Shown piece by piece: positions 5,736 to 37,818 of a DNA stretch of 64,000 bases. The notes under the pieces are model-generated. The model saw only the letters and a list, made by a program, of their open reading frames with translations. It made no database searches and had not been told where the DNA came from. The stretch lies in assembly GCF_044324785.1 (NCBI RefSeq), contig NZ_CP172127.1. One strand, written 5' to 3'. Origin of the DNA: Escherichia coli (lineage in GTDB: Bacteria > Pseudomonadota > Gammaproteobacteria > Enterobacterales > Enterobacteriaceae). Numbering within the stretch: position 1 is the stretch's first letter; each line of letters begins with the position of its first letter. Made by a program: the position numbers and the translations under genes.

Positions 5736-7124
5736 ATGTCTGAACGCTATATTCCACGCTCCGTTGATGCAGAGCAGGCCGTGCTGGGCGGCCTGATGCT
5801 CGATAATGAACGCTGGGATGAGGTGGTACTGATGCTCCGGGGGGAGGATTTTTCTCTGGCCGCACACCGGGTGATATTCCGCACCATGTCAGAGCTGGCA
5901 ACCAGCGGTCAGCCGTTCGACCTCATCACGCTGAGTGAGCATATTGAGAAAACAAACAATATTGAGGCACTGGGTGGTTTCGCTTATCTGGCTGAACTCA
6001 GCAAAAATACGCCTTCTGCAGCCAATATTATCGCTTATGCCCGTATTGTTGCTGAAAAGAGCATGCTGCGTCAGTTGCAGGAGACGGGGAATGCGCTGAT
6101 TACGGATGTGGCCGCACCGGATGCGACACCACGCACTGTTCTTGAATCCGCTGAACGTCGGCTCTTTTCACTTTCACAGACTGGCATGTTGCATGAGCGA
6201 TGTGAAGTCAGTCTCACCTCGGCTATGGAGCTGGCGCTGCGTCAACTGGAAGAGGGACTGAACGCCGGCGGGATGACGGGCACGCCCACGGGATTTGATG
6301 AACTGGATAAGATGACCTGTGGTCTGCAGCCCGGCGACCTCATTCTTCTGGCTGCACGCCCGTCTATGGGGAAAACAGCGCTGGGCCTTACCTTCTGTCT
6401 TAATGCCCTGTGTAACCGGACCGATGAAACGGTATTTCTTTTCAGTATCGAAATGTCCCGGGAGCAGCTGATTCTGCGTGTCCTGTCAATGCTCTCCAGG
6501 GTGGAGCTGACACGTCTTCGCAGCAGCATGATGAATGATGAAGAGTGGGCGAGAGTCACGGCAACCATGGGACGCTTCATGAATGAAGCGTCATTCATCG
6601 GAGATGGAAACCGCCTGATAATTGATGACACCTCCTTCCAGACGCCGTCATCGCTGCGTGCCAGCGCCCGTCGTTATGTCCGTCTGTATGGCAGACCTTC
6701 CCTGATAATGGTTGATTACCTCCAGCTGATTCGTTCTCCGGACCAGGAGAACCGAACGCAGGAAATTGCGGAAATATCCCGCGCCCTTAAGGCGTTAGGT
6801 AAAGAGCTGGGATGCCCGGTACTGGCACTGTCTCAGCTTAACCGTCAGGTGGAGCAGCGGGCGGATAAGCGCCCCAATAACGGTGACCTGCGTGATTCCG
6901 GGGCGCTGGAGCAGGATGCTGACCTCATTATGTTTATTTACCGTGATGAGGTTTATAACTCTGGCACGCTGGATAAGGGCGTTGCTGAAATCATTGTGAG
7001 CAAACAGCGGCAGGGGCCAACCGGAACGATACGGGTGAACTTCGACGGCCGCTACACCCTGTTTTCACCGTTTGAACGTGGATGGAATTTTGACCGTGCC
7101 GGAGGAAATGCGTATGTCAATTAA
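5736..7124 (+). CDS. DnaB-like replicative DNA helicase
   Basis: N-terminal DnaB domain (AEQAVLGGLMLDN), Walker A ARPSMGKTALGLTF, Walker B IMVDYLQL; SD GGGAGGTGG before ATG 5736. Confidence 0.9.
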   Translation: MSERYIPRSVDAEQAVLGGLMLDNERWDEVVLMLRGEDFSLAAHRVIFRTMSELATSGQPFDLITLSEHIEKTNNIEALGGFAYLAELSKNTPSAANIIAYARIVAEKSMLRQLQETGNALITDVAAPDATPRTVLESAERRLFSLSQTGMLHERCEVSLTSAMELALRQLEEGLNAGGMTGTPTGFDELDKMTCGLQPGDLILLAARPSMGKTALGLTFCLNALCNRTDETVFLFSIEMSREQLILRVLSMLSRVELTRLRSSMMNDEEWARVTATMGRFMNEASFIGDGNRLIIDDTSFQTPSSLRASARRYVRLYGRPSLIMVDYLQLIRSPDQENRTQEIAEISRALKALGKELGCPVLALSQLNRQVEQRADKRPNNGDLRDSGALEQDADLIMFIYRDEVYNSGTLDKGVAEIIVSKQRQGPTGTIRVNFDGRYTLFSPFERGWNFDRAGGNAYVN

Positions 7125-8766
7125 ACGAAATCATTCCGTTGATCTGGGAGCTGCCATCATGCAACCGGGCCGTCAGGCCAGCACGACGGGTAACGTGGTG
7201 GCGCTGGGGGAAACACCGATGATTCTGACGCTGGATCAACTGCGCCCCAACCCGGATAACCCGAGGACCACGCGTAATCCCCGGTACGACGATATTAAAA
7301 GTTCAATTTTCTCCCGTGGACTGGATACGGTGCCCAAAGTCACCCGGATACCTGAGAGTGAGCCGGATATCTATATTTTCAGCGATGGTGGTAACACGCG
7401 ATATCAGATCCTGAAAGAGCTGTGGGAGGAGACCGGCGATCAGCGTTTCTATCGTATTCATGTGCTTTTCAAGCCATGGCCGGGACGGCTTCAGTGCGTC
7501 ATTGGTCACCTGGCTGAGAATGAAGTCAGGGGCGAACTGACGTTTATTGAAAAGGCCCGGGGTATCCATAACGCCCGGATGATTTATGAGGAGTCGATGC
7601 AGCGAACCGTGACGATCAGGGAACTGGCGTCACTGCTGACGGATGAAGGACTTCCGGTAAGCCACTCATCTGTCAGCAGGATGGAGCATACTCTGAAATA
7701 TCTGTATCCGTGGATCCCCGATCTTCTGGAATCAGGATTAGGAAGACCGCAGATCAATTCACTGTTGTCTCTCCGGCAGGATGCGGAACGCATCTGGGGA
7801 CAGTTTGCGGTGGCAACAGAGAACGGGGCGGATTTTGACCGCGTGTTTGGTGAATGCTGCAGCAAATTCAATTCACCGGAGCTCTGGTCACTGGAGATGT
7901 TCCGGGATGAGCTGATTGGTGATCTGCTGAAAGCGTTACCACATCCGGTGCTGGATTATGACCGCTGGTTGCTTGAACTGGATCCGCGGGAGCGTAACCG
8001 ACGTCACCATTTTGGCGAACCTGAGCCGGTGCTCATTCCCGCAGACAGTGATGCGATGCCAGAGCCTGCGACTGACGGTGTGTCGGCAGTGACGGCGGAG
8101 AAGAACAGCGGAAGGGAGCAGTCTGTGATTTCCGCACCGGCTGACCATGACACCGTCATGAATACGGAGCAATCCCCGGCTGGAAAGGCGGAGAGTTCAG
8201 TTATCGAACAACGCGAAGAACGCCGTAGAAAGGAAGTCCAGCCGGATATGTATGGTGGTGAAGAAACATACAGCGGCGATTACGAAGAGGATGGCGATAC
8301 CCGTGATGCTGCGGATCTGCCGGTAACGTCACCGGAAGAGGGGGCTCAGCAGAGCAGCGGTGAAATATTCAGTGAGCCGGTATTCAGTGTTGGTGAACTG
8401 GATGATATCGAATATCTGCAGAATGAGGCATTTCACCTGGCATGGGAGCTGGCGTCACACACAGGCTGTGTCGATGAGCTGGCTATGGACAGGGAAAGCG
8501 AACTGTCTGCGGGATTCGGCGCGGCAGAGGCGAATTGTTCTCCGGTCATGGCATTTCTTGTCAGACTGACCGGTGAGGAGGTTCTGCGGGTCAATCCGGT
8601 TTCCCTTGATGCACTGCTGATAGGCGGCAGTACTGAAGAAGACCTGCCGTTGCTTGATGATGAACATGCAGGAAAGTTGCTTCGCCTGCTGGGTGTGTTG
8701 CGTCGTCTGCGGGGGCTGCAGCGTATGGTGGAAGACGAGAGTGAGGAAGGGCGCGATGAATGCTGA
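7114..8766 (+). CDS. ParB-like nuclease-domain protein with acidic C-terminal region
   Basis: N-terminal ParB/Srx-like domain (LTLDQLRPNPDNPR...); SD GGAGGAA before ATG 7114; overlaps dnaB-like stop by 11 nt. Confidence 0.8.
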   Translation: MSIKRNHSVDLGAAIMQPGRQASTTGNVVALGETPMILTLDQLRPNPDNPRTTRNPRYDDIKSSIFSRGLDTVPKVTRIPESEPDIYIFSDGGNTRYQILKELWEETGDQRFYRIHVLFKPWPGRLQCVIGHLAENEVRGELTFIEKARGIHNARMIYEESMQRTVTIRELASLLTDEGLPVSHSSVSRMEHTLKYLYPWIPDLLESGLGRPQINSLLSLRQDAERIWGQFAVATENGADFDRVFGECCSKFNSPELWSLEMFRDELIGDLLKALPHPVLDYDRWLLELDPRERNRRHHFGEPEPVLIPADSDAMPEPATDGVSAVTAEKNSGREQSVISAPADHDTVMNTEQSPAGKAESSVIEQREERRRKEVQPDMYGGEETYSGDYEEDGDTRDAADLPVTSPEEGAQQSSGEIFSEPVFSVGELDDIEYLQNEAFHLAWELASHTGCVDELAMDRESELSAGFGAAEANCSPVMAFLVRLTGEEVLRVNPVSLDALLIGGSTEEDLPLLDDEHAGKLLRLLGVLRRLRGLQRMVEDESEEGRDEC

Positions 8767-9487
8767 TGCCGCACGTCAGGATCAACTGATTAAACGGATA
8801 AGAAAACTGCTGGCGCTGAGCCGGAATAACAGTAACCCCCATGAGGCAGGCCAGGCACTTTCCCGTGCTCAGGCGCTGATGCGCAAGCACGGTATCACTG
8901 AACTGGATACTGATATTTCGGTGATAAAGACCTCGTCATCAAAGGGGGCCCCGTCAGAAGCGGAAAAAGTTCCGGTATGGATGGGGCGCCTTATGCATGT
9001 TGTTGCAGAGGCATTCGGATGCCATACATACCTGGACTGGCGTATCACAACCGGAAGGTACTGGCGGCGGGTTGTCATATTTTATGGCTTTGGGGAGCGC
9101 CCGGTTGTGGCGGCGTATGCCTTTGATGTTCTCTGCCGGCAGATGCAAAAGGCAACAAAGGCGTATCTTTCAACCCAGAGCCGGACATTAAAATTGTCAA
9201 CCCGAAGGGCAAGAGCAGCCATGTTTCGTGACGGCTGGGTTTATGGGGTGCGTGATGTGGTGGATGCATTCCCGCTCACGGAAGATGAGACGCGTGTAAT
9301 GAAGACGTGGCTGAAGAGACAGCAATTTGAGGGAATGGCTGCCTTCCGGAATGTTAAGGACTGTAATGGTGGTGATCGTGCACGCTGGCAGGGATACAAC
9401 GAGGGGAAAAAGGCAACGCTGAATCACGGTGTTGGTTCCCGGGATCTGAGACCGGAAAGCCTGATATCGGGCGGAGGTGAGGTATGA
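8756..9487 (+). CDS. Conserved ICE protein, DUF2786-like N-terminus
   Basis: MNADAARQDQLIKRIRKLLALSRNNSNPHEAGQALSRAQALMRKHGI; SD GAGGAAGG before ATG 8756; family by recall. Confidence 0.65.
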   Translation: MNADAARQDQLIKRIRKLLALSRNNSNPHEAGQALSRAQALMRKHGITELDTDISVIKTSSSKGAPSEAEKVPVWMGRLMHVVAEAFGCHTYLDWRITTGRYWRRVVIFYGFGERPVVAAYAFDVLCRQMQKATKAYLSTQSRTLKLSTRRARAAMFRDGWVYGVRDVVDAFPLTEDETRVMKTWLKRQQFEGMAAFRNVKDCNGGDRARWQGYNEGKKATLNHGVGSRDLRPESLISGGGEV

Positions 9488-10062
9488 GTAACAACTTATC
9501 ACAGGCCACCAACGGGCTGTTGATGCAACTGGTGATGGATCTCAAGAGTGGCTATCTGCGGCGATGTGAAGCGCTGGGGCTTTCCCGGGAAGAAATGCAG
9601 ATGCTGCAGGGGCTGAGCATTGAAGAAATTCACTATCTGTCAAATTCAGAAGTGTCGGTGCTGCGGCTGGATATTAACCACAACAATCTTGTGCGCATGT
9701 TGCAGCAGGCGCGGACTGAACAGAAACGTCTGCAGCGAATCGATCGCGCTCTGGCGCTGGGTGGGTCTATCGAACTCATGGCGTTTTATTTTGGTCTTTC
9801 CAGCGTGGATGTGGCTGCGCGGCGTCGTATCTCCGGTATTGATGTTCGTCCCGGAAGGGGGATCACCCTGAGTGACGATGAGAATTCTGAACTCTGGCGG
9901 TTGTGGCAGAAAGCCGGGATCAATGATGTGGAGAGTGTGGATGGGCTGGATGTCATGATGCTTTGTGCTGAACAGATGAACATTCCACTGACGGCCATCT
10001 GGCATGCCGTCAGAGGGTGGCATACAACCGGAAATCCGGATCAGGTAAGGAGTGCGTCATGA
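9484..10062 (+). CDS. Conserved ICE hypothetical protein (SPI-7-type replication/regulatory region protein)
   Basis: 192-aa ORF translationally coupled to flanking genes; family by recall. Confidence 0.65.
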   Translation: MSNNLSQATNGLLMQLVMDLKSGYLRRCEALGLSREEMQMLQGLSIEEIHYLSNSEVSVLRLDINHNNLVRMLQQARTEQKRLQRIDRALALGGSIELMAFYFGLSSVDVAARRRISGIDVRPGRGITLSDDENSELWRLWQKAGINDVESVDGLDVMMLCAEQMNIPLTAIWHAVRGWHTTGNPDQVRSAS

Positions 10063-26023: not shown

Positions 26024-28140
26024 TGAGCAACCGCTATGTCATTGAGGCATTGCTGAGACCGGCTGTGGAGTTCAATACGGCAGTGGTGGCAGCAACAGCA
26101 GCATGTATCTGTGTGACAGCCCCCTGGGCGGTGGCGCTGGCACCCACCGTCAGTTACGCCACTGCCGGTGGATTTGCCCTGCTGGCCGTGGTGCGTTTCC
26201 GGCAGGGGATGAACATCATCCGGTATCGCCGTAATCTGCGCCGGCTGCCCCGCTATGTGATGAGTACACGGCAGATCCCGCTCAGCCGTCAGCGGCTGTT
26301 TCTGGGGCGGGGATTTCGCTGGACCCAGAAGCATACCCAGCGTCTCCAGGATACGCTGCGACCGGAGGTGGCACACTATCTGCAGCCGGGCGGACTTTAC
26401 CGGCTGGCGCGCTGGCTGGAAATGAAAACGGAACACCGTCTGCCCGCGCTGGGGAAACTGCTCCGGCATGAGTCGTCGCTGAATCCTGTGCGTCCTCTGC
26501 CGCCGGTGGGGGGAAATCCCGCCCTGCATGGTATTGAGCCGGATGAACAGGATGTGACGCTGGCTCTGGGGGAGCGTGTGGGGCATACCATTGTCTACGG
26601 CACCACCCGTGTCGGTAAAACCCGCCTGGCAGAACTGCTGGTCACTCAGGATATCCGCAGGGGAGAGGTGACCATTGTGTTTGATCCCAAAGGTGATGCT
26701 GATCTGCTGCTGCGTGTCTGGGCGGAAGCACACCGTGCCGGGCGGGGTGATGAACTGTATATTTTCCATCTGGGATGGCCGGAAATTTCGGCCCGATATA
26801 ATGCGGTGGGACGCTTCGGGCGTGTTTCGGAAGTGGCTTCCCGTGTGGCCGGTCAGTTGTCCGGTGAAGGGAACTCGGCGGCTTTCCGCGAGTTCGCCTG
26901 GCGGTTCGTCAACATCATTTCCCGCGCCCTGGTGGCACTCGGTGAGCGCCCGGACTACCTGCTGATTGTGCGGTATGTGAACAACATAGCCGATCTCTAT
27001 ATCCGCTATGCCGGAAAGGTGATCCGCGAGCGCATGCCGGAACTGGAGCAGGCGATTGCGAATAACCAGAATGTGATCAGCGAGGAGGATGTTCCCCGCA
27101 CCATGCAGAACCAGCCGGATGCGGTACGTATCTGGTCCATCGAGATGGCCCTGAGCAGTGAGGAGGGTAAAAAAATTTACGATCCGATCCTGGACGGGCT
27201 TCGCAGTGCGGTCCGCTATGACCGTACCTATTTTGACAAAATCGTGGCGTCCCTGCTGCCGCTGCTGGAAAAACTCACCACGGGCAGGATCGCAGAGCTG
27301 CTGGCACCGGACTATCTGGACATGAACGATGCGCGACCGATTTTTGACTGGGAACAGGTGATCCGTAAAAAGGCGGTGGTCTATATCGGCCTGGATGCAC
27401 TCAGCGACAGTGTGGTAGCCAGTGCTGTGGGGAATTCGATGTTTGCGGACCTGGTGAGCGTGGCGGGGCATATCTACAAGCACGGCATGCATGCCGGTCT
27501 GCCCGGTAAGGGGGAAGGCAAAAATGTGGTGAACCTGCACTGCGATGAGTTTAACGAACTGATGGGGGATGAGTTTATTCCGCTCATTAACAAGGGGGGC
27601 GGTGCCGGTATGCAGGTCACCGCGTACACCCAGACATCGTCAGATATTGAAGCGCGTATCGGTAATGCAGCCAAAACGGCGCAGGTTCAGGGAAACTTCA
27701 ACAACATGATCATGCTGCGTGTCAGGGAGAACAGGACGGCAGAGCTGCTGACCACACAACTGCCTCAGGTGGAGATCTACACCAAGACGCTGGTCTCCGG
27801 TCACCAGGATACGGCGGACGTGTCTGCCGGTCAGGATTTCACGTCCAGCACCCAGGATCGTGTCGGCACGGTGAAGGTACCTCTGCTGGAGCCGTCAGAT
27901 ATTGTCACCCTGCCCAAGGGACAGGCGTTTGCCCTGCTGGAAGGGGGGCAGTTGTGGAAAATCCGGATGCCGCTGCCGGCAGGGGATACGGATGACGTGC
28001 TGATGCCGGAGAACATTGCCCGGGTGGCAGAGGCGATGAGACAGAACTATCACACCGGTGAAGGATGGTGGAATGAGCCGCCGTCAGCGCAGGCCGCCGG
28101 AACAGATGAAGGAGGCGGATATGGCGGAAGCGCGTCGTGA
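26023..28140 (+). CDS. traD: Conjugative coupling protein TraD (T4CP, GI-type)
   Basis: Two N-terminal TM helices, Walker A GTTRVGKT, TraD/VirD4-like architecture. Confidence 0.85.
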   Translation: MSNRYVIEALLRPAVEFNTAVVAATAACICVTAPWAVALAPTVSYATAGGFALLAVVRFRQGMNIIRYRRNLRRLPRYVMSTRQIPLSRQRLFLGRGFRWTQKHTQRLQDTLRPEVAHYLQPGGLYRLARWLEMKTEHRLPALGKLLRHESSLNPVRPLPPVGGNPALHGIEPDEQDVTLALGERVGHTIVYGTTRVGKTRLAELLVTQDIRRGEVTIVFDPKGDADLLLRVWAEAHRAGRGDELYIFHLGWPEISARYNAVGRFGRVSEVASRVAGQLSGEGNSAAFREFAWRFVNIISRALVALGERPDYLLIVRYVNNIADLYIRYAGKVIRERMPELEQAIANNQNVISEEDVPRTMQNQPDAVRIWSIEMALSSEEGKKIYDPILDGLRSAVRYDRTYFDKIVASLLPLLEKLTTGRIAELLAPDYLDMNDARPIFDWEQVIRKKAVVYIGLDALSDSVVASAVGNSMFADLVSVAGHIYKHGMHAGLPGKGEGKNVVNLHCDEFNELMGDEFIPLINKGGGAGMQVTAYTQTSSDIEARIGNAAKTAQVQGNFNNMIMLRVRENRTAELLTTQLPQVEIYTKTLVSGHQDTADVSAGQDFTSSTQDRVGTVKVPLLEPSDIVTLPKGQAFALLEGGQLWKIRMPLPAGDTDDVLMPENIARVAEAMRQNYHTGEGWWNEPPSAQAAGTDEGGGYGGSAS

Positions 28141-28882
28141 TGCGGAACGCAGCCCGCAGTCCCGGGCGCCCCGTCAGCATGGTCTGCTGTACAATCTGGT
28201 GTGGGGCTGGCCGTGGGCACTGGTGGGGCTGATTTTATCCTCCCTGCTGCTGAGTCTGTTGATTGAGTATGCCGGTATGACGTTTTTCTGGAGTGAGGAG
28301 GGGGCGGCGCACAGCCGCGCTGTCATGAACACGGAGCTGGGCTGGCTGTCAACGGAGTTCACCCGCAGTCTGCTGCTTTCCGCGCCGGCAGAAACGGTGC
28401 CGGCGTGGATTTCCGCCGCGTATCAGTGGCTGTTTGTGGACAGTGGCATGCAGACATGGCTGCATGCACAGCAGGCGGGGACGGCGGCAGGCAGAAGCGT
28501 GTCTGAATTCAGCAGTGAGCTGAGTCAGTGGCTGGCTTATCATCTTCATGACTACCTGCTGGCGACGGTGTATGTGACGGTGGTGACGATGGTCAGGGTG
28601 GTTATTCTCGTCCTGTCCGTTCCGTTGTTTGTGATGGTGGTTCTGGTGGCCGTTGTGGAGGGGCTGGGGCGCCGTGATTTGCGGCGTTACGGCGCGGCTT
28701 ATGAGTCCAGCTTTGTCTATCATCATGCAAAAAAATCAGTCAGACCGGCGATTTATGTCCCCTGCATTATTTACCTTTCCTGGCCCGGCGCGGTATATCC
28801 GAACCTGCTGATATGGCCGGCGGCCATGCTGCTGGGACTGGCGGTTACCGTGACTGTGGCATCGTTCAAAAAATATCTCTGA
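28121..28882 (+). CDS. ICE integral membrane protein
   Basis: SD AAGGAGG before ATG 28121; multiple TM helices. Confidence 0.65.
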   Translation: MAEARRDAERSPQSRAPRQHGLLYNLVWGWPWALVGLILSSLLLSLLIEYAGMTFFWSEEGAAHSRAVMNTELGWLSTEFTRSLLLSAPAETVPAWISAAYQWLFVDSGMQTWLHAQQAGTAAGRSVSEFSSELSQWLAYHLHDYLLATVYVTVVTMVRVVILVLSVPLFVMVVLVAVVEGLGRRDLRRYGAAYESSFVYHHAKKSVRPAIYVPCIIYLSWPGAVYPNLLIWPAAMLLGLAVTVTVASFKKYL

Positions 28883-28965
28883 TTCATGCGCCGGACACCC
28901 CGGTGCAAAACGTGTTTTGTGGCGGGGTGTCGGCAGACAAGCCACGTACTGACTGTCACAGCGCG

Positions 28966-29157
28966 TCAGCGTAAGAGCACCGGCAGCAAGGGAATGACAA
29001 CAATGGTGATGACGATGATGAGCAGGTTGATGCCCCTGATGACGTCATATAACCAGACAGGGCACTGTGGCTCTTCCCTGACGATATATAACACAACAAA
29101 AAACCAGGTAAGACTGAACAGGGCCCGGTACGGAAGGGCGGTGAGGAGAAATTCCAT
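28966..29157 (-). CDS. Small hydrophobic protein (63 aa), antisense within T4SS block
   Basis: Strong SD AGAGGAAA 7 nt before ATG; two predicted TM helices; sits in a 0.5-kb gap with no plus-strand gene. Confidence 0.4.
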   Translation of the reverse strand: MEFLLTALPYRALFSLTWFFVVLYIVREEPQCPVWLYDVIRGINLLIIVITIVVIPLLPVLLR

Positions 29158-29400
29158 GCTGATGTTTCCTCTTTACGGGGGGTCATTAGCGGGAAACTGT
29201 AGTGATGACCTGTTTCAGTAAACAGAAAAAATCATTAAAGATGGAATAAAATTGCGCCCCGGCGCGGGGATATGTTCCGGCATTCAGCCATGTCCGTTTT
29301 CCCTTAAAAATTTTCAGTTTTACAAATAGAGTTTATCGCTGACCGGCACACCTGCCTTCTTCATGCTGTACGCACCCACAGATTCTTAACGGAGGTGCGT

Positions 29401-29742
29401 ATGTTTTCTCTTCCCGCATTTCCCCGGCGTGCCGCTGCCCTGGCAGGTACTACCGGGATGATGCTTCTTGCCATTGTGGCTGTGCCGGTTCAGGCCGCCG
29501 AAAAGGATGAGCTGGCAACGGCCATGCGCCAGCTTGACCAGGTACGGGCGGCGCTTGACCGTGCCAGAACGGCATCCCTTCAGGCCACGCCTCATGACGG
29601 GCGTTATTTCTTCGACTACCCGCGCGCACAGGCTGACATTCAGACCATGCAGGCGGGTATTGACCGTTATCTCACGCCGTCCCGTGCCCAGCCCCGAAAC
29701 GGCAGTGCCGTGACCGGTGAATACCGGCGGGAGCGTCCCTGA
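29401..29742 (+). CDS. RAQPRD-family ICE protein (secreted)
   Basis: Signal peptide; motif SRAQPRN near C-terminus; SD GGAGG before ATG 29401. Confidence 0.7.
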   Translation: MFSLPAFPRRAAALAGTTGMMLLAIVAVPVQAAEKDELATAMRQLDQVRAALDRARTASLQATPHDGRYFFDYPRAQADIQTMQAGIDRYLTPSRAQPRNGSAVTGEYRRERP

Positions 29743-29984
29743 TGGCGCTGACGTCGGCACAGATCACGGCCTTTAAGGTGGCATCCGGTGATGTGGATCT
29801 GAATGTGGTGCATCTGACATCGGTGGGAATGCTGGTTGCCGTTCTCTTTCTCTGGGCCGCCTGGGGACTGTCGGATGCATGGTCCGGGTGGCGTAACGGT
29901 GACGTCAGGGAATCTGCGTTTATCTGGTTTACCGTCCGTACCGCACTGCTGCTTGTCAGCAGTATCTGGATGTTTGCGGGCTGA
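29742..29984 (+). CDS. Small T4SS membrane protein
   Basis: 80 aa, two TM helices. Confidence 0.65.
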   Translation: MALTSAQITAFKVASGDVDLNVVHLTSVGMLVAVLFLWAAWGLSDAWSGWRNGDVRESAFIWFTVRTALLLVSSIWMFAG

Positions 29985-30011
29985 TTTTCCGTTTTCTTTA
30001 AGGAGACATAT

Positions 30012-30377
30012 ATGTTTAAAAACGCTTTTACTTTCCGTCACCTGCGTCTGGCGGGAATGGGGCTGATTGCTTTTCTGCTGGGCAGTCTGACCCCGGCACT
30101 GGCCGATTTGCCCAAAATTGAGCCGCCATCATCCGGTGGGGGTGGTGGTTTTTTTAATCAACTCAAAGGCTATATCCAGGATGGCATTGTGCTGTTTGGT
30201 CTGGTAGTTGCAGCGGCGGCCTTTGTGAAGGTGGCGGAGGCTGCCGTTACCACTTTTTCTGAGGTGCGTGACGGCAAGACGGGCTGGGGACAGTTCGGGG
30301 CCATTATCGTGGTCGGGGTGGTGCTGCTGGTTGCGGTTATCTGGCTGCTCGGCAAATCCGCGAACATCATCCTGTAA
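30012..30377 (+). CDS. Pilin-like T4SS membrane protein
   Basis: Signal sequence, Gly-rich segment, two hydrophobic helices; SD TAAGGAG. Confidence 0.65.
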   Translation: MFKNAFTFRHLRLAGMGLIAFLLGSLTPALADLPKIEPPSSGGGGGFFNQLKGYIQDGIVLFGLVVAAAAFVKVAEAAVTTFSEVRDGKTGWGQFGAIIVVGVVLLVAVIWLLGKSANIIL

Positions 30378-30396
30378 TCCACCAGGAGGGCTGTTT

Positions 30397-30762
30397 ATGG
30401 AAACCATTCGTTTTCTGCCCGATCGTCTGAATGCCGAACCGACGGTGTTCCGGGGATTCACCACGCCAGAGCTGGGTCTGGCCGCACTGAGCGGTGTCTT
30501 TCTCGGTCTTCTCTGGACACTGCCACTGATACCGCTGTTCGGCTGGGTGATTATTCCCACCGGTGCCCTGCTCACTCCACTGCTTCTGGTCTGGACCGGC
30601 GGCGTGTGGATCACCCGGCTGAAACGGGGCAAACCGGATAACTGGCTCTGGCAGCGTATTGAAGAGAAAAAAGCGGCGCTGGGTGTGGGGCGCCCTGCAT
30701 TTATCAGGGAAGCACAGGGCTGGTCCCTGCGTCGTTCCCGCGTCAGGGGAGGAAAAGGATGA
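30397..30762 (+). CDS. T4SS membrane protein
   Basis: SD AGGAGGG before ATG 30397; two TM helices. Confidence 0.65.
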   Translation: METIRFLPDRLNAEPTVFRGFTTPELGLAALSGVFLGLLWTLPLIPLFGWVIIPTGALLTPLLLVWTGGVWITRLKRGKPDNWLWQRIEEKKAALGVGRPAFIREAQGWSLRRSRVRGGKG

Positions 30763-37445: not shown

Positions 37446-37818
37446 AAAAACTGCCGCTACTGGCAACTGTGTCGTGGTGGCATGTTACTGGCAGGTGGTT
37501 TACGGAGTATGGGCCCAATTCTGGCCTGCCGGAACATGCCCTTATAACCTTTAACACAGCGGTTACATAAAAAACAATGTCTTTTATGCACAGCAGTATT
37601 ATGGCTGAAAGTGAAATAAAAGCGCGATATTATACTGCTTCGCGTCCGGTTGTCATTATCATGGATAGTGCGTTATGTTTATAAAGGCGTGACGGACGCT
37701 TAATTCTCACGCAACGCACCCCTCTTAAATTTTCAGTTTCCGGTTTTGAATTTATTGCTGCTATTGGTGCTGCTTATGCGCACGCTGTAAGTCGGATATT
37801 GTCTGACGGAGGCGTACA

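What the first reader, a model, noticed from the sequence alone, without database searches (positions are those of the whole stretch)
28883..29400. 0.5-kb gap in the T4SS operon holding an antisense 63-aa hydrophobic ORF with a strong SD
Seen: plus-strand T4SS genes are otherwise tightly coupled, but here there is a 518-bp interval whose only well-formed ORF is on the opposite strand (28966-29157; SD AGAGGAAA; two predicted TM helices), plus a GC-rich palindrome CCCCG-GCG-CGGGG near 29255. Candidates: small membrane toxin or entry-exclusion peptide, or an internal promoter/regulatory region of the transfer operon.
Basis: seen in the sequence. Interest (0 to 1): 0.5.

Follow-up and report, generated by a model that had tools for sequence, protein, structure and literature searches.

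The report
Operon boundary inside an ICE conjugation cluster
The 0.5-kb gap is the normal junction between two transcription units of an E. coli integrative conjugative element: a folded element closing the first unit, a variable slot holding a small opposite-strand membrane-protein gene, and a conserved promoter for the second unit, an arrangement already described in the model element ICEclc.

Summary
There are 518 bp between the TIGR03747 gene (stop 28882) and the RAQPRD gene (ATG 29401). The gap contains a 63-aa minus-strand ORF (28966-29157) predicted to form two helices.

The gap has three parts.
- **Element (a), 28890-28969 (+).** A 20-bp hairpin with a bulged G and a second, variable hairpin. 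It always lies directly after the last gene of the traD unit and shows strong covariation. It has no Rfam match.
- **A variable cargo slot.** The interval runs from 195 bp to more than 3 kb in other Enterobacterales. Here it holds the small ORF. That ORF belongs to a narrow Escherichia/Salmonella family that is always antisense at this site. It is intact in some lineages and disrupted or absent in others (dN/dS 0.2-0.8).
- **A conserved weak promoter with upstream boxes, 29305-29367, plus a 5'UTR hairpin over the SD and start codon.** A second copy lies at 37724-37786, before the TIGR03757 operon.

This matches ICEclc, which has orf68241, then antisense orf67800, then the BisDC-dependent P67231 promoter. 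The window also encodes BisD- and BisC-like proteins.

The ORF's function is unknown. Verdict: ordinary architecture, with modest new details.

The parts
28121..28882 (+). TIGR03747 (DtrJ-like) membrane-protein gene, the last gene of the traD transcription unit. Included as context.
   Evidence: RefSeq annotation of the 100%-identical E. coli SF-088 record; ORF list.
28890..28934 (+). Hairpin 1 of element (a). It has 20 bp and a conserved bulged G (28894), conserved apical GCAAAAC/GTTTTGTG and conserved basal GCYGGAC/GTCRGC.
   Evidence: RNAalifold found compensatory changes in 9 of 20 pairs. Across 34 distinct sequences, 98.7% of cells are paired, and 84 cells changed on both sides against 19.5 in shuffles (0/500 shuffles reach this). 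The U.G and G.U pairs favour the + strand.
28935..28969 (+). 3' half of element (a): conserved linker AGACAAGCC, a variable GC-rich hairpin 2, and the conserved motif GCGCG[T/G]CAG. The stop codon of the antisense ORF lies inside that motif.
   Evidence: Alignments A3 and A4. Folds of the 34 aligned sequences (genome and metagenome copies) show a hairpin between AAGCC and GGCGCG in most of them. Sequence read directly.
28966..29157 (-). 63-aa small membrane-protein gene predicted as a helical hairpin. It is accessory and lineage-restricted.
   Evidence: WP_000394957.1; intact alleles listed; family members and their positions; dN/dS; AF2 model.
29164..29173 (-). Shine-Dalgarno region AAGAGGAAAC of the small gene. 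The GAGG core lies 10 nt before the ATG.
   Evidence: Conserved in all E. coli alleles. In the L177 subfamily the ATG follows GAGGAAAC directly.
29176..29250 (-). Block upstream of the small gene, presumed to be its own promoter or operator. It contains the imperfect inverted repeat CTGTTT-N4-AAACAG. No consensus sigma-70 site was found.
   Evidence: Identity here is 75-85% against 62-78% across most of the ORF (higher near its 5' end). The block is conserved between protein subfamilies. The promoter scan was negative.
29257..29269 (.). It is specific to this window and has no support as a functional element.
   Evidence: Not conserved in L002-L006; folding z-score +1.1.
29305..29367 (+). Promoter P1 of the RAQPRD-to-VirB4 unit. 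It comprises the upstream box AAATTTTCAGTTT (29308-29320), AGAGTTTATCGCTGAC (29328-29343), a -35-like CTGACC (29339-29344), a 17-nt spacer and a -10-like CATGCT (29362-29367).
   Evidence: Conserved with constant spacing in 23 of the 25 loci where the RAQPRD gene start was found (22 distinct upstream sequences, several genera). In more distant E. coli ICEs only this part of the gap is conserved. It is the positional equivalent of ICEclc P67231.
29368..29403 (+). 5'UTR of the RAQPRD gene. A hairpin pairs GUACGCACC (29368-29376) with GGUGCGUAU (29394-29402), covering the 3' end of the SD (GGAGG, 29391-29395) and the AU of the start codon.
   Evidence: MFE -14.1 kcal/mol, z -3.6. Compensatory variants include TAAGCACC/GGTGCTTA and TGCACACC/GGTGTGCA; 5 cells changed on both sides against 1.5 in shuffles, 0/500.
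29401..29742 (+). RAQPRD-family gene, the first gene of the second T4SS unit. Included as context.
37724..37786 (+). Promoter P2, a second copy of the same promoter architecture, 33 nt upstream of the TIGR03757 ATG (37819). It lies at the 3' edge of a second variable gap (37446-37723).
   Evidence: It is the second-best PWM hit in the window (z 5.9). The exact 13-mer AAATTTTCAGTTT occurs only at 29308 and 37727. Sequence. In divergent ICEs, conservation starts exactly at this box.
7072..10062 (+). Candidate activator genes: a TIGR03764 ICE_PFGI_1_parB protein (ORF 7072-8766), an intervening ORF, and a DUF2857 protein (9484-10062). These are BisD-like and BisC-like.
   Evidence: NCBIfam 2.5e-113; Pfam DUF2857 9.8e-66 plus a weak FlhD hit. 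BisC carries DUF2857 and BisD carries a ParB domain in ICEclc (PMC7423338).

Best explanation
The interval is the boundary between two transcription units of the mating-pair-formation genes of a SPI-7/PFGI-1/ICEclc-type integrative conjugative element in E. coli. It has three parts.

1. **3' end of unit 1.** Directly after the stop codon of the TIGR03747 gene lies an ~80-nt plus-strand element of two hairpins (28890-28969). I infer that it marks or stabilises the 3' end of the traD-TIGR03747 transcript and separates it from what follows.
2. **Variable slot.** The middle of the gap is where different ICE lineages carry different cargo. In this lineage it holds an oppositely oriented gene for a 63-aa, two-helix inner-membrane protein with its own upstream region. 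The gene is accessory. Its role is unknown. My leading guess is a constitutively expressed immunity or exclusion-type membrane factor, not a T4SS part.
3. **Promoter of unit 2.** The last ~100 nt are an activator-dependent promoter. It has weak -35 (CTGACC) and -10 (CATGCT) elements with conserved upstream boxes. It is followed by a short 5'UTR whose hairpin partly occludes the SD and start codon of the RAQPRD gene. It drives the RAQPRD-pilin-VirB8/9/10-VirB4 unit. A sister promoter at 37724 drives the next unit. I infer that both are switched on by the element's ParB-like and DUF2857 (BisDC-like) proteins, as in ICEclc.

**Shown here:** sequence conservation, covariation, repeated promoter architecture, and positional conservation of the ORF family.
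**Inferred:** transcription start and end points, activator dependence, and protein function.
For: **Identity of the element.** The window is 100% identical over this region to E. coli SF-088 and other genomes. The genes are annotated TraD, TIGR03747, hypothetical, RAQPRD, TIGR03758 and so on.

**Variable interval.** In 38 loci from E. coli and other Enterobacterales the TIGR03747-to-RAQPRD interval ranges from 195 bp to more than 3 kb, with unrelated contents. These include candidate defence proteins matching PADLOC Hp1/Hp2, PDC-M65A and PDC-S32.

**Element (a).**
- It is conserved across genera.
- The hairpin has 98.7% of cells paired and 84 double-change cells against 19.5 in shuffles, 0/500.
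- In all 48 metagenome copies it directly follows the TIGR03747 C-terminus.
- In L038 an extra plus-strand ORF is inserted and (a) follows that ORF instead.
- Many loci that lack (a) have a canonical hairpin-plus-T-run terminator at the same place.

**Promoter.**
- The architecture is invariant in 22 distinct sequences.
- A second copy, P2, sits at the same distance from its start codon. The shared 13-mer is found only at these two sites.
- In divergent ICEs, conservation begins exactly at the upstream box for both P1 and P2.
- The 5'UTR hairpin has z -3.6 and compensatory changes.

**ICEclc parallel.** ICEclc has iceD4, then orf68241 (TIGR03747), then orf67800, then P67231 in front of orf67231 (RAQPRD).
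- orf67800 is oppositely oriented and has no database match.
- It lies outside the transfer-competence regulon, and deleting it does not affect transfer.
- Its site is described as permissive for gene loss.
- P67231 is BisDC-dependent.
- Sources: PMC10018362; PMC9286271; PMC12409273.

**Activator genes.** BisC- and BisD-like genes are present in the window.

**ORF family.**
- Three subfamilies exist, all antisense at this site.
- dN/dS is 0.21-0.38 in the deeper comparisons.
- The model shows two helices.
Against: - There are no expression data. No transcription start or 3' end has been mapped for this element.
- Element (a) has no U-tract, so it is not a canonical intrinsic terminator.
- Conserved primary sequence in its loop, base and tail suggests specific recognition by some factor. 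That could equally act on DNA.
- About half of the related loci lack (a).
- The enterobacterial promoter boxes do not visibly resemble the published 27-bp ICEclc motif. Shared regulation by BisDC-like proteins is therefore by analogy only.
- Only two copies of the box were found in 64 kb.
- The window allele of the ORF compared with its closest other alleles gives dN/dS 0.6-0.8, with differences spread evenly over codon positions.
- The ORF is frameshifted, interrupted or deleted in several E. coli ICE lineages.
Confidence: 0.7

Rival explanations
1. The small ORF is the functional core of the gap, acting as an entry-exclusion or immunity factor. A constitutively made inner-membrane hairpin protein in ICE-bearing cells would block redundant acquisition of the same ICE type. 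Its allelic subfamilies would define exclusion groups.
For: - It is a two-helix membrane protein.
- It is always encoded on the strand opposite to the transfer genes, and so outside their regulon.
- The ICEclc positional analogue is constitutively transcribed.
- Distinct allelic subfamilies track ICE lineages.
- Being non-essential fits an exclusion function.
Against: - It has no similarity to any known exclusion protein or any other family.
- It is absent from most related ICEs in other genera.
- It is disrupted in several E. coli lineages.
- The literature search found no exclusion system reported for this ICE family.
- Deleting ICEclc orf67800 did not change transfer. However, recipient-side exclusion was not what that experiment tested.
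Confidence: 0.15
2. The small ORF is a membrane-damaging toxin, either a type I toxin-antitoxin-like maintenance module or an abortive-infection effector. Its expression would be held down by convergent antisense transcription from the traD unit or by an unrecognised RNA.
For: - It is very hydrophobic (GRAVY 1.37) and small.
- It converges on a structured RNA element that overlaps its stop codon.
- The slot carries candidate defence genes in other ICEs.
- The SD-to-ATG spacing is sub-optimal.
Against: - It has two transmembrane helices and 61-73 aa, unlike typical single-helix type I toxins of fewer than 60 aa (own knowledge).
- No antisense RNA gene, Rfam hit or PADLOC hit was found.
- Frequent pseudogenisation without loss of the neighbours suggests there is no addiction.
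Confidence: 0.1
3. Element (a) works at the DNA level rather than as RNA. It could be a strand-specific single-strand initiation site or origin for the ICE's own replication module, an origin of transfer, or a recombination site through which cargo enters the slot.
For: - Primary sequence is conserved in the loop, base and tail, and there is a conserved bulged base. These features are typical of protein-recognised hairpins.
- The strand asymmetry could equally reflect single-stranded DNA.
- In L172 a cargo gene is flanked by a full copy of (a) and a partial second copy.
- The ICE encodes DnaB, TopoIII, SSB and replication proteins.
Against: - Its distance from the stop codon of the last plus-strand gene stays tightly fixed even when an extra gene is inserted.
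- It is replaced by ordinary terminators in loci that lack it.
- About half of the related loci lack it, which is hard to reconcile with an essential oriT.
- There is one copy per element, and it is not next to the relaxase.
- As far as I recall, the ICEclc oriTs lie near traI. This is own knowledge and was not verified here.
Confidence: 0.15
4. The middle of the gap is decaying remnant DNA, and the 63-aa ORF is not expressed as a protein. Only the flanking conserved elements matter.
For: - dN/dS is 0.6-0.8 between the window allele and its nearest alleles, with differences evenly spread over codon positions.
- Frameshifted, interrupted and deleted versions exist.
- No homologues were found outside Escherichia and Salmonella-labelled assemblies among 1.84 billion representative proteins.
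Against: - The reading frame, the start region and the loop motif EEPxxPxW plus IVVIP survive down to 37-41% identity across subfamilies.
- dN/dS there is 0.21-0.38.
- Position and strand are conserved.
- The SD is conserved.
Confidence: 0.1

Closest known systems
ICEclc (Pseudomonas) region orf68241 | orf67800 | P67231-orf67231
   Same: - The flanking gene families are the same: TIGR03747/DUF4400 upstream and RAQPRD downstream, after the TraD/IceD4 coupling protein.
- A short gene of unknown function lies between them in the opposite orientation.
- In ICEclc that gene is outside the transfer regulon, dispensable for transfer, and at a site permissive for gene loss.
- A dedicated promoter lies directly upstream of the RAQPRD gene.
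- A second promoter and variable site follow the VirB4 gene (P58432 in ICEclc, P2 at 37724 here).
- ParB-like and DUF2857 regulator genes are present in the element.
   Different: - The antisense genes differ in size (63 aa against 134 aa), and their sequences could not be compared with the available tools. The ICEclc protein has no predicted transmembrane helix.
- The enterobacterial promoter boxes are A/T-rich and do not visibly match the GC-rich ICEclc motif.
- Element (a) has not been described for ICEclc. It was found here only in Enterobacterales and in metagenome contigs.
- Nothing has been tested experimentally for this E. coli element.
Variable-region hotspots of ICE backbones, such as HS1-HS5 of SXT/R391 elements
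   Same: Fixed intergenic positions in a conserved transfer-gene backbone carry different accessory or defence genes in different family members. The core functions are not disturbed.
   Different: The ICE family and T4SS type are different. Here the slot is bounded by a specific structured element on one side and a promoter on the other. In one case (L172) the cargo is flanked by a repeat of the bounding element.
Rho-independent terminators and 3'UTR stabilising stem-loops
   Same: A GC-rich, stable hairpin lies immediately after the last stop codon of an operon, between convergent genes. Canonical terminators take its place in sister elements.
   Different: It has no U-tract, is much longer (20 bp plus a second hairpin), and has conserved primary sequence and a conserved bulge. 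These features imply recognition by a specific factor.
Small hydrophobic proteins of conjugative elements and type I toxins (for example TrbK-type exclusion proteins, Hok, TisB)
   Same: It is a small, very hydrophobic, membrane-targeted protein encoded on a mobile element next to transfer genes.
   Different: It has no sequence or profile similarity to them. It is predicted as a two-helix hairpin, not a lipoprotein or a single helix. No partner antisense RNA was identified.

Membership tests
PFGI-1/ICEclc/SPI-7-type ICE (GI-type T4SS) inter-operon junction equivalent to ICEclc orf68241|orf67800|P67231 | Flanked by a TIGR03747/DUF4400 gene (after TraD) and a RAQPRD-family gene, followed by TIGR03758 and TIGR03745 | tested here: met
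   RefSeq annotation of the identical record; Pfam tags on related loci; ICEclc gene table.
PFGI-1/ICEclc/SPI-7-type ICE (GI-type T4SS) inter-operon junction equivalent to ICEclc orf68241|orf67800|P67231 | An oppositely oriented, poorly conserved, dispensable gene between the two units, at a site that tolerates gene loss and gain | tested here: met
   Orientation. Loss, disruption and variable content of the gap. Dispensability is inferred only from natural variants. Homology to orf67800 could not be tested because no ICEclc sequence was available.
PFGI-1/ICEclc/SPI-7-type ICE (GI-type T4SS) inter-operon junction equivalent to ICEclc orf68241|orf67800|P67231 | The element encodes the BisD (ParB-like) and BisC (DUF2857) activator pair | tested here: met
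   TIGR03764 ICE_PFGI_1_parB, 2.5e-113; DUF2857, 9.8e-66. Orthology to BisDC is inferred from the shared domains.
PFGI-1/ICEclc/SPI-7-type ICE (GI-type T4SS) inter-operon junction equivalent to ICEclc orf68241|orf67800|P67231 | The promoter carries the common transfer-competence motif of ICEclc (27-bp MEME motif / 15-nt BisC site) | tested here: inconclusive
   The published motif instances show no evident similarity to 29305-29367 by inspection. Instead, a different box is shared by P1 and P2 in this element. The 15-nt BisC consensus was not available as text.
PFGI-1/ICEclc/SPI-7-type ICE (GI-type T4SS) inter-operon junction equivalent to ICEclc orf68241|orf67800|P67231 | Promoter activity depends on BisDC and is restricted to transfer-competent cells | not testable with these tools
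   Needs reporter fusions or RNA-seq.
Intrinsic (Rho-independent) terminator, considered for element (a) | Stable GC-rich hairpin directly after the gene | tested here: met
   (-40 kcal/mol for 28886-28975).
Intrinsic (Rho-independent) terminator, considered for element (a) | A run of U immediately 3' of the hairpin | tested here: not met
   The scan found no terminator there. Tails are CAGACAAGCC after hairpin 1 and mostly non-T-rich after GCGCGKCAG. The one exception is L138.
Any described RNA family (Rfam 15) | Covariance-model match | tested here: not met
   No hit at E <= 1 in 28000-30500 on either strand.
Origin of transfer, considered for element (a) | A cis-acting site that is essential and therefore present in all functional relatives, usually near the relaxase gene | tested here: not met
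   Roughly half of the 38 related loci lack it at this position. There is a single copy in the window, and it is not near a relaxase gene. Nicking and mobilisation cannot be tested here.
Type I toxin-antitoxin toxin, considered for ORF63 | A small single-helix hydrophobic peptide with a cognate antisense RNA. Toxicity on overexpression is also defining but was not testable here. | tested here: inconclusive
   It is hydrophobic, but two helices are predicted. No RNA partner was found. No match to PADLOC or Pfam.
Entry-exclusion proteins, considered for ORF63 | A membrane protein made in ICE-bearing cells that lowers acquisition of the same element, with allele-specific pairing to a donor T4SS protein | not testable with these tools
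   Only membrane topology and allelic diversity could be examined. No homology to known families.

The most novel reading that the evidence does not exclude
Element (a) at 28890-28969 is an undescribed, factor-recognised structured nucleic-acid motif specific to the traD-TIGR03747 unit of enterobacterial GI-type ICEs. It could be an RNA 3'-end or processing signal bound by an ICE- or host-encoded RNA-binding protein, or a strand-specific single-stranded DNA signal. It would also serve as the left border at which cargo is exchanged. The antisense two-helix protein family next to it could be a new exclusion or immunity determinant of these elements.
Probability: 0.3. Interest if true: 0.55.

Novelty: new member of a known kind. 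Interest (0 to 1): 0.3.

Why it matters
SPI-7/ICEclc-type elements spread virulence and resistance genes in E. coli, Salmonella and many other proteobacteria. Their regulation has been worked out only in Pseudomonas.

This analysis gives concrete, testable coordinates in an enterobacterial member:
- two sister promoters with a shared upstream box, which are candidate targets of the ParB-like/DUF2857 activator;
- a translation-occluding 5'UTR hairpin;
- a strongly covarying two-hairpin element that closes the traD unit;
- a defined cargo slot that carries candidate defence genes in relatives;
- a small, narrowly distributed membrane-protein family tied to that slot.

None of this overturns current views. 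It extends the ICEclc model to Enterobacterales and supplies one possibly new structured motif.

Tried and rejected
- **Rfam scan of 28000-30500 at E <= 1:** nothing.
- **Consensus promoter and terminator scan of 28500-29800:** no promoter. The only terminator-like site lies inside the RAQPRD gene.
- **Pfam, NCBIfam, PADLOC and PHROGs on the 63-aa protein:** nothing meaningful.
- **Further copies of elements (a) and (b) in the window:** exact or near-exact patterns found none. A position-weight matrix was needed to find P2.
rejected as a feature, because it is not conserved and folds no better than shuffles.
- **RNAalifold on the 5'UTR across all clades:** A subset alignment with a named structure was used instead.
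- **Metagenome pattern scan:** the pattern was too degenerate, and 72 of 120 hits were chance. Filtering for the full hairpin left 48 true copies.
- **Published BisC 15-nt consensus and the position of the ICEclc oriTs:** not retrievable from the held texts.
- **Gene coordinates mapped from SF-088:** wrong for the left part of the window, because of a ~1.4-kb indel. They were corrected with the ORF list.
- **sigma-54 reading of the promoter and attC, REP or dif readings of element (a):** considered by inspection and dropped, because the spacing or the motif position does not fit.
Full report
**What the window is.** The region 28700-29600 is 100% identical to the chromosomes of E. coli SF-088 and about 35 other complete E. 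coli genomes. RefSeq annotates the neighbourhood as follows: TraD coupling protein; TIGR03747 membrane protein; a 192-bp hypothetical gene on the other strand; then RAQPRD, TIGR03758, TIGR03745, TIGR03750, PFL_4703, TIGR03749, TIGR03752, TIGR03751 and the conjugative ATPase. Other genes include STY4528/STY4534-type replication genes, DnaB-PI, ParA, a type IVB pilus with a shufflon, and an integrase next to tRNA-Ser. Together these identify a SPI-7/PFGI-1/ICEclc-type integrative conjugative element with a GI-type T4SS.

**Check of the observation.**
- The gap, the ORF and the palindrome are at the stated coordinates.
- The gap is the largest in the T4SS cluster. The next largest is 373 bp at 37446-37818.
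- The ORF's SD has a GAGG core 10 nt from the ATG, so it is moderate rather than strong.
- Hydropathy and an AlphaFold2 model (helices 2-28 and 34-62, pLDDT 75) support a two-helix hairpin.
- The palindrome at 29257-29269 is not conserved in any related element and folds no better than shuffled sequence.

**Comparative anatomy.** I collected the same interval from these sources:
- five other E. coli ICE lineages and five more E. coli alleles;
- 34 genome contigs of other Enterobacterales, found with a TIGR03747 protein alignment;
- 48 metagenome contigs.

The interval between the TIGR03747 and RAQPRD genes is always present but ranges from 195 bp to more than 3 kb. Its contents are unrelated from one lineage to the next. 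They include IS elements, regulators, a RelE/ParE-like pair, ParA-like ATPases, a fimbrial-adhesin-like gene, and proteins matching the candidate anti-phage families Hp1/Hp2, PDC-M65A and PDC-S32. Only the two edges of the interval are conserved.

**Left edge: element (a), 28890-28969.**
- Structure. A 20-bp hairpin starts 2-25 nt after the stop codon. Its base is conserved (GCYGGAC/GTCRGC, with a bulged G) and so is its apex (GCAAAAC/GTTTTGTG). The conserved linker AGACAAGCC follows, then a second GC-rich hairpin of variable sequence and length, then GCGCG[T/G]CAG.
- Covariation. Across 34 distinct sequences, 98.7% of cells form standard pairs. Nine of 20 pairs change on both sides. There are 84 double-change cells against 19.5 in column shuffles (0/500), and the slid controls collapse.
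- Strand. Two adjacent positions are U.G and G.U in 26 and 17 of 34 sequences. These would be mismatches on the other strand, so the plus strand is the structured one.
- Position. Every one of the 48 metagenome copies sits right after the TIGR03747 C-terminus. In L038 an extra plus-strand ORF has been inserted, and the element follows that ORF instead.
- Substitution. Many loci without (a) carry an ordinary hairpin-plus-T-run terminator at the same spot.
- What it is not. It has no U-tract and no Rfam match.
- Reading. I take it to be a 3'-end element of the traD-unit RNA, acting in termination, processing or stabilisation. Because its primary sequence is conserved, it is probably recognised by a specific factor.
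- Alternative. A single-stranded-DNA or recombination role is not excluded. In L172 a cargo gene with its own terminator is bracketed by a full copy of (a) and by a remnant of the TIGR03747 3' end with a partial copy of (a).
- Overlap with the ORF. The stop codon of the antisense ORF (28966-28968) lies inside the conserved GCGCGTCAG motif.

**Right edge: element (b), 29305-29403.**
- Architecture. Twenty-two distinct upstream sequences (23 of the 25 loci where the RAQPRD gene start was found), from Escherichia, Serratia, Pantoea, Morganella, Xenorhabdus, Brenneria, Erwinia, Klebsiella, Yersinia, Pectobacterium and others, align without gaps over this core. It reads (A)AATTTTCA, ~13 nt, AAAGAGTT(T)ATCSGCTGAC(C), 17 nt, CAYNCT.
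- Promoter quality. The -35-like CTGACC and -10-like CATGCT are poor sigma-70 matches, and the consensus scan calls nothing. That is what one expects of an activator-dependent promoter.
- 5'UTR. Directly downstream, GUACGCACC pairs with GGUGCGUAU. This covers the last two G of the SD and the AU of the start codon (-14.1 kcal/mol, z -3.6). Compensatory variants occur in other genera. The Serratia clade keeps an equivalent AGCAC/GUGCU pairing shifted by 2 nt.
- Second copy. A position-weight matrix built from these sites finds one other strong hit in 64 kb, at 37724-37786, ending 33 nt before the TIGR03757 start codon. For P1 the distance is 34 nt.
- Shared sequence. The two sites share the exact 13-mer AAATTTTCAGTTT, which occurs nowhere else in the window, together with TTTATYGCTG and CAYGCTGT.
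- Conservation boundary. For both sites, similarity to divergent E. coli ICEs begins exactly at the upstream box, and the rest of each gap is variable.

**The parallel in the model element.** In ICEclc the order is iceD4 (TraD), orf68241 (TIGR03747/DUF4400), orf67800, orf67231 (RAQPRD), orf67001, iceB2.
- orf67800 is 134 aa with no database match.
- It is oriented opposite to the transfer genes and is transcribed independently of the transfer-competence regulon.
- It can be deleted without effect on transfer, and it lies at one of two sites permissive for gene loss in related elements.
- P67231, upstream of the RAQPRD gene, is one of the best-characterised transfer-competence promoters. It is active in 3-7% of stationary-phase cells and depends on BisDC. 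BisC is bound there in ChIP-seq.
- The other permissive site and a further motif-bearing promoter (P58432) lie after iceB4. That corresponds to P2 here.
- BisC is a DUF2857 protein and BisD a ParB-like CTP-dependent clamp.
- The window encodes a DUF2857 protein (9484-10062, 9.8e-66, plus a weak FlhD hit) and a TIGR03764 ICE_PFGI_1_parB protein.
- The published ICEclc motif instances do not visibly resemble the A/T-rich enterobacterial boxes. The regulatory parallel therefore rests on position and gene content, not on a shared DNA motif.

**The antisense ORF.**
- Alleles in E. coli ICEs. Three are intact: the window type (63 aa, with a two-substitution variant), a 61-aa type and a 63-aa type, at 52-62% identity to the window protein by alignment. 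All have a conserved SD and start. One lineage is frameshifted, two are interrupted by a 72-bp insertion, and one lacks the gene. Database entries for frameshifted versions also exist.
- Absence elsewhere. tblastn finds nothing in the 34 loci from other genera.
- Exhaustive search. A profile search of 1.84 billion representative proteins returns seven hits. Six are from this same locus type, and one is a 73-aa relative.
- Subfamilies. A profile that includes that relative and its 62-aa tandem neighbour recovers three subfamilies: MEFL..., MPEHLF.../MAILL... and MTELTLKIYAG.... They come from E. coli, E. albertii and a Salmonella Typhi-labelled assembly.
- Position. Every member examined lies between the TIGR03747/DtrJ-like and RAQPRD genes, on the strand opposite to them.
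- Selection. dN/dS is 0.61-0.84 between the window allele and its nearest alleles, with differences spread evenly over codon positions. It is 0.19-0.38 in the other comparisons.
- Conserved features. The loop motif EEPxxPxW and the IVVIP stretch are retained.
- Conclusion. This is a real but weakly constrained accessory gene. No family assignment is possible.
- Its upstream region. About 75 nt upstream on the minus strand are better conserved than most of the coding region, and they are shared between subfamilies. This suggests the gene has its own control region, although no consensus promoter is evident.

**Conclusion.** The finding is real, but it describes an ordinary and, in the model system, already characterised feature: a transcription-unit boundary with a variable slot inside the transfer-gene cluster. 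The "toxin or exclusion peptide" option remains open.

The modest new points are:
- the strongly covarying two-hairpin element after the TIGR03747 gene;
- the shared box of two sister promoters in enterobacterial elements, together with a start-codon-occluding 5'UTR hairpin;
- a small protein family confined to this slot.

Noticed in passing
window 37446-37818: A second variable gap lies in the T4SS cluster, between the gene after the VirB4-like ATPase and the TIGR03757 gene. Only its last ~100 nt (promoter P2, 37724-37786, plus the 5'UTR) are conserved in divergent E. coli ICEs. In one relative (L051) an AraC-family regulator gene occupies the slot.
   Followed up: partly
L003 about 1700-1772 and L005 (same insertion): A ~72-bp insertion splits the small ORF. 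It contains two direct repeats, GATCGATT[T/C]AGATGCCA, and may be a miniature mobile or duplicated sequence.
   Followed up: no
L004, roughly 1950-2030: A tandem array of about seven copies of the 9-bp unit GCCCGTATT lies inside the gap, just upstream of the promoter block. PGAP annotates a probably spurious ORF across it.
   Followed up: no
L016 4035-4955; L017 3978-6186; L018 4044-5225: In Pantoea and Enterobacter relatives the same slot carries proteins matching the PADLOC candidate defence families PDC-S32, Hp1+Hp2 and PDC-M65A. The junction therefore acts as a defence or cargo hotspot.
   Followed up: partly
L172 3240-3310 and 4520-4610 (also L176): A cargo gene (338 aa, weak MrpH_C adhesin-like hit, with its own terminator) is bracketed by two things. 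One is a full copy of element (a). The other is a remnant of the TIGR03747 3' end with a partial copy of (a) from a different lineage. This hints that recombination at or near (a) exchanges cargo.
   Followed up: partly
L172 2711-2899 and 3001-3222: Two small two-helix paralogues (62 aa and 73 aa) lie in tandem on the antisense strand of the slot. The Salmonella Typhi-labelled assembly (L176) has the 62-aa copy with an altered C-terminus.
   Followed up: partly
window, somewhere between about 10,100 and 28,100: The window is not collinear with E. coli SF-088 here. Genes to the left are offset by about 1.42 kb relative to a simple coordinate mapping. SF-088 has a run of ead/Ea22-like pseudogene fragments in that region.
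   Followed up: no
window 29338-29343, 28929-28934 and 28965-28971: The hexamer GCTGAC/GTCAGC recurs at the base of hairpin 1, in the tail motif GCGCGTCAGCG of element (a), and at the -35 of promoter P1 (CGCTGAC). This may be coincidence or a shared recognition site.
   Followed up: no
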